A model generated the notes under the pieces. It saw only the letters and a list, made by a program, of their open reading frames with translations. It had not been told where the DNA came from and did no database searches. Below, in pieces: positions 1 through 7,090 of a stretch of 64,000 nt of DNA (the first letter of the stretch is position 1; every line of letters begins with the position of its first letter). Position numbers and translations under genes: made by a program. Origin of the DNA: the human T2T-CHM13v2.0 reference genome, Homo sapiens; assembly GCF_009914755.1 (NCBI RefSeq), contig NC_060931.1. One strand, written 5' to 3'.

Positions 1-150
1 TGTTCAATCCTGTATTCTCCTCTGGTCTGTGTATTCATTGATCTCTACCTTTCTCCTCTTGTATGTCTCATAGGGATTTCAAACTTGACTTGCCTTGCCC
101 CTAATATAATTCTTCTGGTATCAGTAAATATCTGGTACCAGTAAATAGCA

Positions 151-277
151 TGGCATGATCTTGACCTCCCTGGGCTCAGGTGGTCCTCCCACCTCAGCCT
201 CCCAAGTAGCTGGGACTATAGATGTGCACCACCACACCTGTCTAATTTTTTATATTTTTTGCAGAGTGGGGGTTTCA
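151..277 (-). mobile_element. Old Alu fragment (AluJ/FLAM-like)
   Basis: gggctcaggtggtcctcccacctcagcctcccaagtagctgggactata. Confidence 0.85.
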
Positions 278-289
278 GCTGGGAATCCA

Positions 290-690
290 TCCTCTAACTC
301 TACCTTCAAAATACATCCCCAAACTTACTGCTTGTCACTACTGCAGGTCCAAGTCACCATTACTTCTTGCTTCCACTTTTGCAAAAGCTGTCTCACTTGT
401 CCCATGGCTTCTACTCTGCCCTTTTATAAACGCTTCTCCAAAAAGCAGTCTTCTTAACACCACACATTCTTTCACTCCCTGCTTGACATTTCTCATCATT
501 CTCAGAGCAAAATCTACATTCTTTATTGAGGTCTACAAAGCCTTATGAGGTCTGGAGCCTGGCTGTCTCATCTTCCCACCTTCTCCTCTCCCGCCTACTC
601 ACTCTGCTTCAGTAACACTGGCTTTCTCTGCAACAGGCCAAGCTGTTTACTGCCTTTGCATTTGTTCTTTTTGTTCAGATGCTTTTCTCT
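290..690 (+). mobile_element. L2 LINE remnant
   Basis: ctaccttcaaaatacatcc...ggtccaagtcaccat..., pyrimidine-rich L2 3' region pattern. Confidence 0.6.
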
Positions 691-696
691 CCAGGT

Positions 697-780
697 AGGG
701 TAAACAGATAAAAAACAGGGTACCAGTAACAATTGAATATCAGATTAAAAAAAAAACAAATACTTTATATAAATGTATTT
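697..780 (+). mobile_element. MER53-like hAT fragment (half palindrome)
   Basis: agggtaaacagataaaaaacaggg...aattgaatatcagat resembles the recalled MER53 left arm. Confidence 0.45.
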
Positions 781-2177
781 CATACACAGAAGAGTGGCTA
801 GATACATAGCAACGATTTGATAAATGAAGAGTAGGTACTCAATAAAGCAGCACACATGGACTGGTTAGAAACACTATGAGGTATTAACTTAAAGAAGTCA
901 TTGTCACTTAAACAGGAGTACTCCCCAGTTATGATTAAGTGTTAATTTGAATAAAAATTACCACACAAGACCCATTTGTGTATTAATAACATATTTTGTC
1001 ATCTTTATACTCTACAAATGTGTTATGGAAAGAAAAATATTCTCTTTGGCCCTTATTTCACTGTTTTTATTTTTATATATAATTTTTGTTTAATTTCCTC
1101 TGTGTGATGATGAGATATGTCTGTTTCTATTTGGGAGGTGGTAGTTTAGATAAGTTATTTGGGCTCCCTGTGGTGTGCATGTCAGTTCACACTGAAAAAT
1201 GTGTCTTTTAAGTTTCCTGATCATGTCTTCCCAAGCATTTTGCATGGTGCAAGTCCATGTAATGTATTTCATAGAATCATTTCAAGTCTTATTATGGCAT
1301 ACATTCTACACAAATGCACTGATGTGGGAGGAACTCAGCATTATTTCTGTCCTATAGAGACTGAAATCCCACTGACACCATGACCAGATATAATAAATCG
1401 GTCTGATTTTTAAATGATTATTTAAGTAGAAAATAACAGATTGGTACTTTCAGTTTAGAACATTAAAATGGAAAAAGAATGCAGTGCCAATATTATATAT
1501 ATATTTATTTTAAAATATGATAAAACTAATTTTATTAGACTTCCTTATAGGGGAACCTCCCTTAAAAGACTGTGTTATTAAAGATATCAACTAAGAATTC
1601 TTTATTCCTTTCTCATTACTCTTTAAAAAATCTAAACCATAGTAAAATTCATATGGTTTTTGCCCCAAAGTTTTCTTCATACAGCATGCGTTACCAGTGG
1701 CTAAAATCTTTTGAAGTTACTGTTGCTAAACTCTTACTCTGCCTTTCTTTCCCCATTCAGAACCTGGGACAACTAATTGCATACAGTACAAGCTTAATAA
1801 TTTTTAATTTATTAAATTTAGAAGTACATGTTTCAAAAGAAAATGTTCTGGTCATTTGGCTAAAAGGTTTTTGATCTTTTTTTCTGAATTATAGCCATCA
1901 TTTAATTTCCTTCAAAATGCAAATCGCTGGTGAAGACAGCCATCAAATCATGGACTAACTTTTGAATTCAGGTAAGTCTGTACTAAAGTTACCACCAGCA
2001 ACTTTGAAGACAATCTATATTTAAAAATTTTTAGGCATGTAGATACTGCATAATAATAGGAATAATGCCCCTAGCAAATAATTTGTTCTCCGACATGTCA
2101 CCTTAACACTCTTACACATTAACTCGTGAGATAGGTAGGTAGTAGTATATTTATTCAACTCTTTAAATGTAGACAGA

Positions 2178-2995
2178 TTATGTACCCAATAATATGCTTT
2201 ATAAATTGGGTTTGCATAAAATAATAAATTTCTCAATGGACAGAATTGGCTTGCTTTACTTCTTTGATTAATAAATGTTAGCTTTTTGAGTCTTCATAAA
2301 CTTGTTATCAAAAAGTCTTGTTTGAACACTTGAGTTCTGATGAAGTCCTCATGGTATGGAGCTTCATAACTGTTTTTGTATAATCTATATCCTTCCGGAC
2401 TCTACCGGGTATAAGGGCCCCTTGGTAGGCTTTGGAGATTATACTACCATTCTACCTTGCTTGTGAGCAGAACCTAATCCAACAGAAATTGCTAGTTTTA
2501 GCCAGACTACATTGGAGCATAGACCATAACCTTTATGGTCCTTAATGTGGGAAACAACTGCCAACTAACATTTCAGTATTTTTTGTAATGATTTTTTTCA
2601 ACTTAATTGTTTCAGAGAAAATAATACTTCCTTTGATATCATTATATCAACATTCAAATAGCACTAAGTGGATTCACTGTTCTATACAGATAACTGTGTT
2701 TTTAAATACTGAAAGCATATTTTGTTAATGTAAAATATACATCATCGATATTATGTATTCCTTTGATACAATAATATAAAGGAATCTCAAATGTTTTCTT
2801 TTTGGAGATCAGAAGGATATAGATTATACTTCTACAATTATGAAGCTCCATACCATGAGGACTTCATCAAAACTCAAGCAAATGAAAAAGCTAACATTTA
2901 TTAATCAAAGAAGTAAAGCAAGTCAATAATTGTCCATTGAGAAATTTATTATTTTATGCAAACACAATTTATAAAGCATATTATCTGGTACATAA
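2178..2995. repeat. Long non-Alu inverted repeat (arms 2178-2395 and 2812-2995, loop about 415 nt)
   Basis: Manual alignment: about 104/111 and 61/67 reverse-complement identity in two blocks, separated by a 41-nt versus 6-nt asymmetric bulge. Confidence 0.95.
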
Positions 2996-3094
2996 ATATC
3001 CTAGTTGAGTCCATGGTGATATATAATTATTGCCATGATAGATTTATAATTATAGTTCAAGGAAAGTACCATAATAGGAAAATGTTATTTTGGT

Positions 3095-3110
3095 GGGGGG
3101 GGGGGGGGGG
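3095..3110 (+). repeat. G16 homopolymer
   Basis: directly visible, flanked by tggt/tggtggt. Confidence 0.95.
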
Positions 3111-3150
3111 TGGTGGTCTTAGGTTAAAAAGATTTTAAAGTCACTGTTGC

Positions 3151-3463
<313 letters not shown>

Positions 3464-4621
3464 GTTGCTATAAGTTTTTAAGAGAAAGGTAAAAAGAGAG
3501 CTGGCCTACTCAAGAGCAATACTTACATATTTTTTAGTGTAACTGATAACCTATAAATCTTATCTAAAAATTCTATGATTGACAGAAGTAAGCTTTTGAA
3601 TCAAAAGGGAAAATAAGGACAATTATAGAAATATAATTTGATTACACTTTTCTTGTGTAATGGTTGACTACCTATGAACTTCTTTCAGGAATTAATAATA
3701 ATTCAAATAATTGCCTATATATCAATTTTTAAAATGTGTATATGAAGATATTAAAGCAACGTTTCCTTACTTTGGCGTCTTTTGCCATGAAAACTATTCT
3801 TTTATTATGCCAGAAGACTTGTGGTTATTTTCTGAGACTCCCTCTGCTATTCTACTCCCCACCCTCTATCACCCCTGCCTGTGAATTCACTCCATTCATA
3901 GTAATGGCCACATCTCCATCTAGTGGCTTCCTAATCAATGACTACTTGGAAACCAATGACAAACACAACGAAAGTGCGTGCTCTAGTAATACATCATGAT
4001 GATTCCAGAGCATTAGAAAAGAAATTGCAAAACAGTAAATGAAGAACTAAATGCAAATCCAAGACCCAAAACATCTCTTTAGTAGTATTGAATAGAGAAC
4101 TCAGAAATTTCTTAAAAGGTTAATTAATAATTTTGGGCTAGATAATGTATATTAAATAAAATGAACTTAGAAACTAGAAGCACTTATTCTAAAATATTTC
4201 AATAAGAATATTTTGAGAGTAAAAAATCTAAAAAGTTATTTAAGTCAGATTTATTTTAAAAAGTAGAAAAATCTGAAAGGAATTGAAAGAGTGCATTAAA
4301 TTTGTGTTAGCATCTTTTGTAAATAAATTGAGATAACCACCTCTAAAAATTGTCATTAGGTAGTTCTCATAAAATACCATGAAGCCTGTATATCTGTCTC
4401 TGTAATGACAATTTTTACACAAAAACTTTATGAAAAATGATTTTTACATAAATATTGAATATGTTTCATTTAGGATTAGAAATGTACATGCCATTTGAAA
4501 TCAGCTATTTACAAAACAACAACATTGGTCCTGAGATTTTAATAACCTGGTTTCAGGAACATTAATATCGCAGATTTAGGAATATGGGTGATTTTCTAGA
4601 ATTTCAAGCCAAAAACAAAAA

Positions 4622-4738
4622 CTAAGAAAAATTAGAGAAAGTGACTGACCATCCACACCACATGAAAACTTGCAGTAAAATGAAGATAGGAGCTGACATC
4701 ATGGTACAGGCACGACTCGTTGTGCACTTAAGTTGATC
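4622..4738 (-). CDS. Candidate alternative terminal coding exon of CACNA2D1: DQLKCTTSRACTMMSAPIFILLQVFMWCGWSVTFSNFS* (GPI-signal-like)
   Basis: Pyrimidine tract, about 80-nt AG-free zone and TAG acceptor at 4739-4741; in frame with phase-0 exon 38; 38 aa + stop, same length as the recalled canonical last exon, with similar C/S/I/Q/W/S spacing. Confidence 0.7.
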   Translation of the reverse strand, partial: DQLKCTTSRACTMMSAPIFILLQVFMWCGWSVTFSNFS

Positions 4739-5994
4739 CTATTAATAACGGGCAAAGTAGCAAGTATAGGAAAAGGAAAGAAAACACAGAAGACATACAA
4801 GATGAGATTTCATGCAATTTGCTGGCAGTTAACGTGAGTCTCCATCCAGAGCAGATTCACAGTGACCATTGCAAATAAGCATTACCAAAATAACTCCACT
4901 GCTAAAGAAACACAAGATATTATTAGCACACCAAGCTACTGAGCAACAGTTGTACTTTCACACACAACCCATTTATAGGAGCTTCAATTGCTGAACATTT
5001 TTGTCTTGGTCAAATCCTTTTAATGGCTTGATCATAAGATATAGCCTCCTAGAATAATATTTTGGGCAATAGGCTTTTAAGTCACTTTTCAAGTTCATCT
5101 GAATTTAATATTTCTAGTGTCAAAAAACTGGTGACAAATAGTTGATGAGCGAAGTTTCTCTAATGAGTGACATGACCCTTGGCCCTTCATAAAACATTCT
5201 TTGGGGGAATAATTTTACATGGGCAACGTGCTGAAGTTGCAGTAGACAGAATAACAGGAGTCCGCCTATCTGGACTTAATATATCTTAAAAAGAAAAAAA
5301 AAACGCTTAGTTGCAATGTTGAATTACTCTCCCTAGCAAGGATCAATAATCCCTCACAGAGATAACTGGGATTGACTGGCTAATACATCTTTCATTTTTA
5401 GTCCCCATTACTGATTTTATTACTTCTTTGTGCTATTTTTAATTTATATTATCTAATTGCATAATATTATCTGTGAAAATGTTTTGTCCTTTCTGGGACA
5501 AATGCAGCTATGTATTTGAGTAGGTAAACTAAATAACTCAAATAATTTATGAGATAATGCTTTACAAGTTTGGATATTCATTGGTGTGTGCACACACTGA
5601 AGAATCAGAATTAGGAAGTATTGTATTTAAAATTAGTTAAAAAGAGGTAGACAGAGATTTTTATGTAGACTTCATCTTTGAGAATAGATTAATATTTCTT
5701 AAGAATTTTAAAAGCATAAAGCTAATGTAGTACATACTGATGACATATTACCTACCTTGTATATAATCAATACACAGTAAATCAGAATAGTATTTATTAG
5801 AGAAAGATAGCTGAACTATAGGAAAAGTAGTAAGCCATCTTTAAGTGACATATATTAAATATGATTTGTAATATTTTATCAAACCCTATGTAATTGACCT
5901 GGTCTAGTTTCAAACACTAGAAAAAGAAATTAGTACAATTAAAGGAAATAATAGAAGTCTAATATGTGATAGCATCAGAAACCATCCAAAAGAA

Positions 5995-6102
5995 ACTAGA
6001 ACTCTGTAATAATAAGACAATGGCTGTATAACAGGTTTTTCAATTCACACTAGAACTCTGTAATAATAAGACAATGGCTGTATAACAGGTTTTTCAATTC
6101 AC
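5995..6102. repeat. Perfect 54-bp tandem duplication
   Basis: actagaactctgtaataataagacaatggctgtataacaggtttttcaattcac occurs twice (5995-6048, 6049-6102). Confidence 0.97.
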
Positions 6103-6431
6103 TGAAGACAAATATAACTAACAAAAATATAATAAAATTAACTTTTATATCTTCAGGATTGGAATATAAATGGAGGCAACAAATATACCATAATTAACAT
6201 TTACTATGAGTTAAATTGATTGGAATTGTGTTTGAAAGCACAATTTCTGTGGGAAGGACATATAAAAGAAGCAACTGTCAAGTTTATGCTAACCATGAAA
6301 ACTACTGAAATGAAAAAAATCTACCAGCAAGTATGTCATGTTAATGAGAAAAACTATGGTTAAGACATTACGTTTGAGTTAAAATTGCAATTTGTATCCT
6401 TGAATTCTTGCGGACAGTGACCATTAATTTA

Positions 6432-7090
<659 letters not shown>

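What the first reader, a model, noticed from the sequence alone, without database searches (positions are those of the whole stretch)
4622..4741. Hidden alternative terminal exon encoding a second GPI-anchor-like C-terminus for alpha2delta-1
Seen: 1726 nt after the phase-0 exon-38 donor, a TAG acceptor opens an in-frame 117-nt ORF, DQLKCTTSRACTMMSAPIFILLQVFMWCGWSVTFSNFS*. It is too short for the supplied ORF track and retains CpGs in a CpG-poor intron. Recalled knowledge: the canonical last exon (outside the window) encodes EDYTDCGGVSGLNPSLWYIIGIQFLLLWLVSGSTHRLL*, also 38 aa/117 nt, and is a GPI signal. The two share S15, I20, Q23 and S31, with C5/C6 and W27/W28 offset by one. The new peptide has GPI-signal architecture: candidate omega S8, omega+2 A, 7-residue spacer, hydrophobic tail without charged residues. 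Inference: an anciently duplicated, mutually exclusive last exon giving the gabapentinoid target alpha2delta-1 a different membrane anchor and 3'UTR, which could alter trafficking and C-terminus-dependent interactions such as the reported NMDA-receptor binding. I cannot verify whether it is already annotated.
Basis: partly seen in the sequence, partly recalled or inferred. Interest (0 to 1): 0.93.

Follow-up and report, generated by a model that had tools for sequence, protein, structure and literature searches.

The report
Conserved alternative tail exon of CACNA2D1
An optional 89-base exon near the end of human CACNA2D1, already in gene models and conserved from fish to mammals, replaces the membrane-anchoring tail of the gabapentin target alpha2delta-1 with a different tail that apparently nobody has studied.

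Summary
The acceptor at 4738, the phase-0 join from exon 38, the 38-codon ORF and the recalled canonical tail are all correct.

The exon is not hidden. The hub's RefSeq table already lists three terminal exons that start at 4738.

It is old. Predicted alpha2delta-1 isoforms of 22 other vertebrate species carry a homologous tail directly after exon 38. They span 3 mammals, 5 turtles, 3 crocodilians, 6 squamates, 4 amphibians and a paddlefish.

The conserved unit is an 89-nt cassette, 4650-4738, with donor ATG|GTCAGT. Its inclusion shifts exon 39 into the +1 frame. In human that frame reads RIILTVVVFLD-stop, identical to the donkey isoform's tail.

There is no sign that the exon is a duplicate of exon 39: 4 of 38 identities, at chance level, and hhalign probability 0.2%.

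Either alternative tail replaces the whole canonical GPI signal and the published NMDA-receptor-binding peptide. GPI-like architecture is plausible but untested. Nine literature searches found no description of it.

The parts
6465..6547 (-). CACNA2D1 exon 38 (annotated). Phase-0 donor TTG|GTAAGA at 6465|6464.
   Evidence: Hub table.
4739..4821 (-). 3' splice region of the alternative exon: AG at 4740-4739, a pyrimidine-rich tract, and an 83-nt stretch without any other AG.
   Evidence: Pyrimidine fraction 0.77 over -50..-4. AG-free distance 83 nt, against a median of 35 (range 10-90) for 26 annotated acceptors of this gene in the window.
4650..4738 (-). 89-nt conserved core ('exon 38a'): 29 codons plus the first 2 nt of codon 30. 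It encodes DQLKCTTSRACTMMSAPIFILLQVFMWCG and the first two bases of the Trp codon. Its downstream partner lies outside the window and so cannot be listed as a part. That partner is the first 37 nt of canonical exon 39 (window -2340..-2304, L003 7160-7196), which is dual-coding. Frame 0 reads EDYTDCGGVSGL.... The +1 frame, after cassette inclusion, reads (W)RIILTVVVFLD-stop.
   Evidence: Orthologous tails in 36 predicted proteins of 22 species. Identity to human over the first 28 residues is 19-26 of 28 in 18 species representatives and 15 of 28 in one frog. Exon 39 frames. The human +1 frame is identical to the last 11 residues of donkey isoforms X18/X20. The full 41-residue human cassette tail is 39 of 41 identical to donkey.
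4644..4649 (-). Candidate 5' splice site ATG|GTCAGT. It is inferred from orthologous models and is not in the hub's RefSeq table for human.
   Evidence: crude score 6.54 against a mean of 7.46 for 26 annotated donors, within the top 3.2% of 3230 minus-strand GTs. Two annotated donors of this gene are also GTCAGT. Tails of 30 of 36 orthologous models switch at this point.
4622..4649 (-). Read-through of that donor: the third base of the Trp codon, then SVTFSNFS and stop TAG (4622-4624).
   Evidence: The same read-through residues occur in the rhinoceros, elephant-shrew and one painted-turtle model. In rhinoceros and elephant shrew a Leu stands at the human stop, and the frame runs on through the residues that follow the stop in human (one search compared).
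3195..4738 (-). RefSeq alternative terminal exons sharing the 4738 acceptor (3195-4738, 4269-4738, 4270-4738). They form a composite terminal exon with its own 3'UTR.
   Evidence: Hub table; hexamers ATTAAA at 4543, AATAAA at 4255 and 3806. No listed hexamer lies 10-35 nt upstream of 4269/4270. The end at 3195 abuts a genomic A-run of an Alu (masked 3121-3467).

Best explanation
Window 4650-4738 (minus strand) is an ancient, protein-coding alternative exon of CACNA2D1. It lies between exon 38 and the last exon.

In its conserved form it is an 89-nt cassette. Exon 38 (phase 0) joins at 4738. The exon ends two bases into a Trp codon at the donor ATG|GTCAGT (4650|4649). It then joins exon 39, whose first base completes the Trp. 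Exon 39 is read in the +1 frame for 11 codons up to a TAA. This gives a 41-residue tail, the 30 residues ending ...FMWCGW followed by RIILTVVVFLD, in place of the canonical 38 residues. The stop lies in the last exon, so nonsense-mediated decay is not expected (inference).

If the donor is not used, the same exon runs on as a composite terminal exon.

The exon 38/39 junction sits 5 residues before the predicted omega-site Cys of the canonical GPI signal. Either form therefore swaps the entire anchor signal for another module. That module has an invariant Cys, a conserved cluster of small residues (TTSRA), a short spacer and a hydrophobic stretch of about 15 residues.

I infer that this gives alpha2delta-1 a differently anchored C-terminus, GPI or a short transmembrane segment. 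The new C-terminus lacks the peptide reported to bind NMDA receptors.

Shown: the sequence anatomy, the frame logic, and orthologous predicted isoforms. Inferred: use of the 4650 donor in human, translation, and the kind of anchor.
For: 1. Anatomy.

2. The 4738 acceptor is used by three RefSeq exon models (hub table).

3. One search found 572 proteins with E<=0.001 among 576 candidates and listed the best 120, mostly mammals. Of those 120, 111 have the canonical tail, 3 have the alternative tail (rhinoceros P0053, donkey X18/X20 P0078/P0079), 3 are fragments and 3 have other ends.

4. A search with the rhinoceros tail gave 22 of 22 candidates, all alpha2delta-1. A profile of 10 tails gave 36 proteins with E<=1 among 676 candidates. 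All 36 are alpha2delta-1, from 22 species reaching to the paddlefish. In all 36 the tail follows the exon-38 homologue directly.

5. Of the 36 tails, 30 continue after the core with [KR][IM]..TVV...-type ends, 3 read through (SVTFSNF...), and 3 stop at ...WC or ...WCG.

6. The human exon-39 +1 frame equals the donkey end exactly. The human cassette tail is 39 of 41 identical to donkey.

7. Nineteen of the first 28 columns are invariant in the 10-sequence alignment A1. One in-frame single-residue deletion (elephant shrew) is the only indel in the core.

8. Within mammals the core is as well kept as the canonical tail. Alternative tail, human against donkey: 26 of 28. Canonical tail, human against Przewalski's horse: 25 of 28.

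9. The donor score lies within the range of the gene's annotated donors.

10. The canonical omega-site is 'C in CGG' (PMC3460456, passages). The NMDA-receptor-uncoupling peptide covers residues 9-38 of the canonical tail (PMC5873963, passages).
Against: - The hub table lists no 4650-4738 exon for human, so no human transcript using the 4650 donor was visible to me. No RNA-seq junction data could be consulted.
- All orthologous proteins are computational gene models. Models with a broken frame would not be listed, so there is ascertainment bias.
- No bird, rodent or other primate model appeared. Clustering at 90% identity can hide isoforms: one canonical cluster holds 1167 members. Only 3 of the 22 species are mammals.
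- No non-human DNA was available. Codon-level selection was not tested, and nucleotide-level conservation, as for a regulatory exon, would give the same protein identity.
- Conservation continues past the human stop (FLFLA; one search compared). This shows that at least part of the conservation is not due to coding in human.
- The three annotated human 3' ends lack a canonical poly(A) hexamer at the usual distance.
- In the cassette form a Lys or Arg follows the 15-residue hydrophobic stretch. This is not typical of a textbook GPI signal (recalled rule).
- The representatives search found nothing, though this is uninformative.
Confidence: 0.8

Rival explanations
1. The functional human form is a stand-alone alternative last exon (4738 down to an intronic poly(A) site) that encodes the 38-residue tail ...WCGWSVTFSNFS as a second GPI signal with its own 3'UTR.
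For: Three RefSeq exon models have exactly this structure (hub table). The ORF is open. It has an uncharged hydrophobic end, which is rare among random frames: 117 of 7874. The read-through residues SVTFSNF recur in rhinoceros, elephant-shrew and one turtle model. ATTAAA at 4543 lies about 80 nt past the stop.
Against: Only 3 of 36 orthologous models read through, and they are named as 'hypothetical protein', '-T1' and a UniRef entry, not as NCBI 'isoform X' models. The human stop is a Leu in rhinoceros and elephant shrew, and the frame stays similar beyond it, which suggests intronic DNA conservation beside a regulated donor. The annotated ends 4269/4270 have no hexamer 10-35 nt upstream, and 3195 abuts a genomic A-run, so internal priming is possible.
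Confidence: 0.25
2. A conserved regulatory exon, not a second anchor. The exon is kept at the nucleotide level because its inclusion disables the normal GPI signal. The result is a poorly anchored, retained or unstable protein, and inclusion tunes the dose of functional alpha2delta-1.
For: The cassette is 89 nt and frame-shifting. Conservation extends into the flanking intron (one search compared). The long AG-free zone and the pyrimidine tracts on both sides are typical of regulated exons (the motif reading is recalled). The +1-frame end is fixed mostly by constraint on the canonical frame DCGGVSGL (and inference).
Against: The stop falls in the last exon, so there is no decay-based dosage control (inference). 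The frame stays open over 30 codons in all 36 models. The only indel is in-frame. Substitutions are mostly conservative (I/M, L/F, A/S/T). The new tail keeps a Cys, small residues and a hydrophobic segment laid out like the tail it replaces.
Confidence: 0.2
3. The exon is an ancient tandem duplicate of exon 39, as in mutually exclusive homologous exons.
For: Same phase. The human read-through ORF has the same length as the canonical coding part, 117 nt. Both have a Cys at residue 5 or 6 and a hydrophobic stretch at a similar place.
Against: 4 of 38 identities; at least 4 arose in 3524 of 20000 shuffles. Global BLOSUM62 score -14, reached by 833 of 5000 shuffles. DNA identity 37 of 117, with the global score reached by 563 of 3000 shuffles. 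Profile-profile probability 0.2%, with 1 aligned column. A translated search of the genome finds only the exon itself plus a chance hit at E=1.37. The conserved unit is 89 nt, not 117.
Confidence: 0.05
4. A chance ORF in an intron behind a noisy splice acceptor.
For: 39 of 567 AGs in intron 38 are followed by at least 38 open codons.
Against: Homologous tails in 22 further species, from paddlefish to mammals.
Confidence: 0.01

Closest known systems
Canonical last exon (exon 39) of CACNA2D1: the GPI-anchor signal, or putative transmembrane tail, of alpha2delta-1
   Same: Same gene, same upstream junction and same phase. Both have a Cys near the start, small residues, and a hydrophobic stretch of about 15 residues followed by 8-11 more residues. 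The omega-site predicted in print is the Cys of CGG (PMC3460456, passages).
   Different: No detectable sequence similarity. The alternative tail has no CGG and lacks the 30-residue peptide used to uncouple NMDA receptors (PMC5873963, passages). In the cassette form a Lys or Arg follows the hydrophobic stretch.
Published alpha2delta-1 splice regions A, B and C (cassette exons 18a and 23, and an alternative acceptor)
   Same: Alternative splicing of the same gene, with tissue-specific cassettes (PMC3988960, abstract and passages; PMC5577920, table passage).
   Different: Those regions lie in alpha2, are in-frame, and do not touch the anchor. The abstract of PMC3988960 states that alpha2delta-1 has 3 spliced regions. 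The passages I retrieved from a 2020 and a 2025 review (PMC7351808; PMC12303104) mention no C-terminal variant.
Frame-shifting penultimate cassette exons that give an alternative C-terminus
   Same: The length is not a multiple of three, the position is next to last, and the effect is 'C-term.'. Examples in the table passage of PMC5577920 are Camk2d (89 bp, exon 19 of 20), Atp2a3 (73 bp) and Atp2b3 (154 bp).
   Different: [quoted passage not shown]
Alternative splicing that switches between GPI and transmembrane anchors (NCAM, acetylcholinesterase).
   Same: Alternative 3' exons give one ectodomain different membrane attachments.
   Different: For alpha2delta-1, neither the kind of anchor of the new tail nor its expression is known.

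Membership tests
Conserved alternative cassette exon | AG acceptor and GT donor flank the exon in the genome | tested here: met
   AG at 4740-4739 and GTCAGT at 4649-4644.
Conserved alternative cassette exon | Orthologous exon included in transcripts or models of other species, joined to the same neighbours | tested here: met
   36 models of 22 species. The tail directly follows the exon-38 homologue. 30 of 36 continue in the +1 frame of exon 39. These are predicted models, not cDNAs.
Conserved alternative cassette exon | Human transcripts that use both splice sites | not testable with these tools
   The hub table lists only exons that read through the donor. No junction database was available. 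The supplementary tables of one long-read heart study held no matching CDS end, but they cover regulated isoforms only and their cells are cut.
Alternative last exon (composite terminal exon with intronic polyadenylation) | Acceptor used by transcripts that end in the intron | tested here: met
   RefSeq exons 3195-4738, 4269-4738 and 4270-4738 (hub table).
Alternative last exon (composite terminal exon with intronic polyadenylation) | Poly(A) signal 10-35 nt upstream of the annotated end | tested here: not met
   none of 12 hexamer variants lies at that distance from 4269/4270 or 3195. Unannotated candidates are ATTAAA at 4543 and AATAAA at 4255 and 3806.
GPI-anchor attachment signal | Small residues at omega and omega+2 (rule recalled) | tested here: met
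   S8-R9-A10 is invariant in A1. A10-S11-A12 occurs in most non-mammals. C5 is invariant. This was by inspection only.
GPI-anchor attachment signal | Spacer of about 5-10 residues, then 12-20 hydrophobic residues reaching or nearly reaching the C-terminus, with no cytoplasmic tail (rule recalled) | tested here: inconclusive
   Human read-through tail: a 29-residue run without D, E, K, R or H reaching the end, and a best 15-mer hydropathy of 1.9. Cassette form: about 15 hydrophobic residues, then Lys or Arg and 10 more residues. The canonical tail has the same ambiguity.
GPI-anchor attachment signal | Call by a dedicated predictor (NetGPI, PredGPI, big-PI), or release by PI-PLC | not testable with these tools
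Duplicated, mutually exclusive homologous exons | Significant sequence similarity between the two exons | tested here: not met
   (no second copy in the genome).

The most novel reading that the evidence does not exclude
A splice switch shared by ray-finned fish and tetrapods lets alpha2delta-1 choose between two unrelated membrane-anchor signals. [quoted passage not shown] This produces an isoform with a different anchor (possibly a true transmembrane form) that keeps the gabapentin- and channel-binding ectodomain but lacks the C-terminal peptide implicated in NMDA/AMPA-receptor coupling. The cassette form is missing from the human RefSeq models in the hub table and from the alpha2delta literature I could search.
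Probability: 0.35. Interest if true: 0.8.

Novelty: new member of a known kind. Interest (0 to 1): 0.6.

Why it matters
alpha2delta-1 is the receptor for gabapentin and pregabalin. How it is held in the membrane, by a GPI anchor or a transmembrane segment, has been disputed (PMC3460456; PMC3112168, search listing only; PMC5873963). Its C-terminal tail is the part reported to couple it to NMDA receptors in neuropathic pain (PMC5873963).

An evolutionarily old, regulated exon that swaps exactly this tail would be a natural experiment on both questions. The isoform would keep the drug-binding and channel-binding ectodomain but carry another anchor and lack the receptor-coupling peptide.

It could also bear on several practical matters:
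- reading of variants in this intron;
- antibodies or peptides aimed at the C-terminus;
- knock-in designs that tag the canonical end.

The abstract of PMC3988960 and the passages I retrieved from PMC7351808 and PMC12303104 name only splice regions A, B and C.

Tried and rejected
1. A direct search of the 5.8-billion-protein set with the 38-residue peptide was not possible. The minimum is 40 residues, and extending the reference ran into the stop codon. I reached the orthologues through the exon-36 peptide instead, then through the tail region of a hit and a tail profile.

2. The representatives search with the peptide gave 0 hits. This is uninformative, because isoforms collapse at 50% identity.

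3. I first supposed that the [KR]I..TVV.. ends came from a separate small exon. The best human match was near window 3594 (score 28, next best 17). I rejected this once exon 39 in the +1 frame gave the donkey end exactly. The 3594 match is chance.

4. Tests for duplication of exon 39 were negative.

5. A translated search of the human genome found no paralogous copy, for example in CACNA2D2-4. The 361-nt region is single copy, so it is not a repeat.

6. Literature: nine searches found nothing on an alternative alpha2delta-1 C-terminus. They included a 13-residue stretch of the peptide as a text term. The library holds only CC-licensed PMC papers and bioRxiv. Searches were loosely framed and add little.

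7. Supplementary tables of the long-read heart paper PMC12905364 held no CDS end at the expected places and no peptide match. Their long cells are cut, and they list only regulated isoforms.

9. No structure or complex prediction was attempted. Neither would settle the kind of anchor.
Full report
**Observation.**
On the minus strand, annotated exon 38 of CACNA2D1 (6465-6547) ends in phase 0 at ...GTC TTG|GTAAGA. After an intron of 1726 nt (4739-6464), the sequence ...TTATTAATAG|GAT puts an AG directly before 4738. From 4738 the frame stays open for 38 codons. It reads DQLKCTTSRACTMMSAPIFILLQVFMWCGWSVTFSNFS and stops at TAG 4622-4624.

I fetched the 9.5 kb below the window (L003). The peptide lies at L003 7083-7196(-), which is window -2417..-2304.

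**Is it more than chance?**
The open frame alone is not remarkable. Of 567 AG dinucleotides in the 8768-nt intron 38, 39 are followed by at least 38 open codons. So are 8.9% of all minus-strand positions of the window.

The composition of the tail is unusual. Only 117 of 7874 random open frames of 30-60 codons (1.5%) end in an uncharged hydrophobic stretch. By a crude, post-hoc GPI-like rule, this ORF is the only one of 62 AG-preceded ORFs in intron 38 that passes. The canonical tail fails that rule because of one Arg, so the rule is only a rough yardstick.

CpG is modestly retained: observed/expected 0.41 in the ORF against 0.17 in window 1-6464. The region is single copy in the genome.

**Already annotated.**
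The hub's RefSeq table lists three exons of other CACNA2D1 transcripts that begin at exactly this acceptor: 3195-4738, 4269-4738 and 4270-4738. The exon is therefore not hidden. All three read through to intronic 3' ends.

Those ends are weakly supported by sequence. None of 12 poly(A) hexamer variants lies 10-35 nt upstream of 4269/4270 or 3195. The end at 3195 abuts a genomic A-run at the tail of an Alu. Unannotated candidate signals are ATTAAA at 4543 and AATAAA at 4255 and 3806.

**Relatives.**
The peptide is too short for the large protein search, and the 50%-clustered library gave nothing. I therefore searched with the 42-residue exon-36 peptide. That search found 572 hits with E<=0.001 among 576 candidates and listed the best 120. 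I inspected their C-termini:
- 111 of 120 carry the canonical tail;
- 3 are fragments;
- 3 have other ends;
- 3 carry a tail homologous to the new ORF (black rhinoceros P0053; donkey isoforms X18 and X20, P0079 and P0078).

A search restricted to the rhinoceros tail returned 22 of 22 candidates, all alpha2delta-1. A profile of ten tails (A1) returned 36 proteins with E<=1 among 676 candidates, again all alpha2delta-1.

They come from 22 species:
- 3 mammals (rhinoceros, donkey, an elephant shrew);
- 5 turtles;
- 3 crocodilians;
- 6 squamates;
- 4 amphibians;
- the paddlefish *Polyodon*.

In all 36 the tail follows the exon-38 homologue (...CFDxxxx) directly. Identity to the human peptide over the first 28 residues is 19-26 of 28 in 18 species representatives and 15 of 28 in one frog. 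In A1, 19 of the first 28 columns are invariant. The only indel in the core is an in-frame loss of one residue in the elephant shrew.

Within mammals the new core is kept as well as the canonical tail. Human against donkey is 26 of 28 for the new core. Human against Przewalski's horse is 25 of 28 for the canonical tail.

The exon therefore predates the split of ray-finned fish and tetrapods. Its dating is recalled knowledge, not tested here.

**What the conserved unit is.**
After ...QVF[MI]WCGW the orthologous tails fall into three classes:
- 3 of 36 continue SVTFSNF..., as in human;
- 30 of 36 continue [KR][IM]..TVV... and stop after about 11 residues;
- 3 of 36 stop at ...WC or ...WCG.

The switch point coincides in human with ATG|GTCAGT at 4650|4649. 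On a crude matrix built from recalled frequencies, this site scores 6.54. The 26 annotated donors of this gene in the window average 7.46. The site ranks in the top 3.2% of 3230 minus-strand GTs, and two annotated donors of the gene are also GTCAGT.

I first looked for a further small exon and found a weak match near 3594. The true explanation is simpler. Human exon 39 read from its second base translates RIILTVVVFLD-stop. That is letter for letter the end of the donkey isoforms.

So 4650-4738 is an 89-nt cassette. It ends two bases into a Trp codon, and the first base of exon 39 completes that codon. Exon 39 is then read in the +1 frame up to a TAA that lies inside the canonical codons for G-L-N. 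The human cassette tail would be 41 residues, 39 of them identical to donkey.

The non-mammalian ends (for example ..TVVGSLD) are what the +1 frame of a ..DCGGVSGLN.. exon yields. This is my own codon reasoning. For human it is shown directly.

The first 37 nt of the last exon (window -2340..-2304, outside the window) are thus dual-coding.

The read-through residues are conserved in rhinoceros, elephant shrew and a turtle model. However, the human stop corresponds to a Leu in the two mammals, and similarity continues beyond it (one search compared). I read this as conserved intron sequence beside a regulated donor, not as proof of coding.

The acceptor fits a regulated exon. Its AG-free zone is 83 nt, against a median of 35 for the gene's 26 annotated acceptors. 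There are pyrimidine tracts on both sides and a TGCATG 78 nt upstream. The reading of these motifs is recalled knowledge.

**Not a duplicate.**
- The two tails share 4 of 38 positions; at least 4 arose in 3524 of 20000 shuffles.
- The global BLOSUM62 score is -14, reached by 833 of 5000 shuffles.
- DNA identity is 37 of 117, and its global score was reached by 563 of 3000 shuffles.
- Profile against profile gives probability 0.2% with one aligned column.
- A translated search of the genome finds only the exon itself and a chance hit at E=1.37.

**Likely function.**
The predicted omega-site of the canonical GPI signal is the Cys of CGG (PMC3460456, passages). That is residue 6 of exon 39. Any alternative exon after exon 38 therefore replaces the whole signal.

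The new tail offers:
- an invariant Cys at residue 5;
- an invariant T-T-S-R-A cluster (candidate omega S8 with A10 at omega+2; in most non-mammals also A10-S11-A12);
- a spacer of 5-7 residues;
- about 15 hydrophobic residues.

In the human read-through form the hydrophobic, uncharged run reaches the C-terminus. In the cassette form a Lys or Arg and ten further residues follow. That could equally suit a short transmembrane anchor. The canonical tail has the same ambiguity, which has fed a published dispute (PMC5873963, passages; PMC3112168, search listing only).

Both alternative tails lack the 30-residue peptide that was used to uncouple alpha2delta-1 from NMDA receptors (PMC5873963).

I conclude that the exon most likely provides a second membrane-anchor module. 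I cannot tell whether that module is GPI or transmembrane.

**What is known.**
The abstract of PMC3988960 states that alpha2delta-1 has 3 spliced regions, A, B and C, all in alpha2. Passages retrieved from two reviews mention no C-terminal variant (PMC7351808; PMC12303104). Muscle and smooth-muscle splicing papers refer to the 57-nt exon 19 or to unspecified cassettes (PMC5577920; PMC5062968).

Nine full-text searches found no description of this exon or its peptide. The library covers only CC-licensed PMC papers and bioRxiv.

Supplementary tables of one long-read heart study list a CACNA2D1 isoform with the canonical CDS end. None has the ends expected here. Their cells are cut and they cover only regulated isoforms.

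The exon is thus known to annotation pipelines in many species. It is not, as far as I could see, known to the alpha2delta literature. The cassette form is absent from the human RefSeq models in the hub table.

**Limits.**
- No non-human DNA and no RNA-seq junction data were available.
- The orthologous proteins are predictions and are subject to ascertainment.
- Clustering at 90% identity hides isoforms. The absence of birds, rodents and other primates says little.
- Codon-level selection, human use of the 4650 donor, translation and the type of anchor remain untested.

**Verdict.**
Interest is moderate to high, because the gene is a major drug target and the swapped part is the disputed, interaction-bearing tail. 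Novelty is limited by the existing gene models.

Noticed in passing
L003 7160-7196 (window -2340..-2304, just below the window): The first 37 nt of the canonical last exon are read in two frames: EDYTDCGGVSGL... and, after cassette inclusion, (W)RIILTVVVFLD-stop. The +1 stop TAA sits inside the canonical G-L-N codons.
   Followed up: yes
window 3195 and 3121-3467: The longest RefSeq alternative terminal exon ends at 3195, directly before a genomic run of about 24 A at the tail of an Alu. This end may reflect internal priming and not a true cleavage site.
   Followed up: partly
window 4269-4270, 4250-4255: Two RefSeq exon ends lie 14-15 nt upstream of an AATAAA (4255-4250), not downstream of one. 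No listed hexamer precedes them at the usual distance.
   Followed up: partly
window 4811-4816 and 4739-4821: A TGCATG hexamer lies 78 nt upstream of the alternative acceptor, within an 83-nt AG-free zone. That zone is the second longest when compared with the 26 annotated acceptors of the gene in this window.
   Followed up: partly
window 3560-3600: A frame here resembles the donkey tail (SLLLSIIEFLD against RIILTVVVFLD; score 28, next best 17). It turned out to be a chance match once the exon-39 frameshift explained the tail.
   Followed up: yes
proteins P0038, P0055, P0069: Three mammalian alpha2delta-1 models (narwhal, wild camel, lynx) have other, unrelated ends after exon 38. The narwhal end looked to me like a read-through of the exon-38 donor; this was not checked.
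   Followed up: no
proteins P0139, P0151, P0152, P0153, P0138: Some amphibian and one amphisbaenian model end right after ...WC or ...WCG, leave the exon earlier, or run on for 18 residues. The 3' boundary of the cassette, or its models, varies outside amniotes.
   Followed up: no
window 3100-3200: Adjacent low-complexity runs of (C)n, (TA)n and (A)n lie beside the Alu. They are likely length-variable between assemblies.
   Followed up: no
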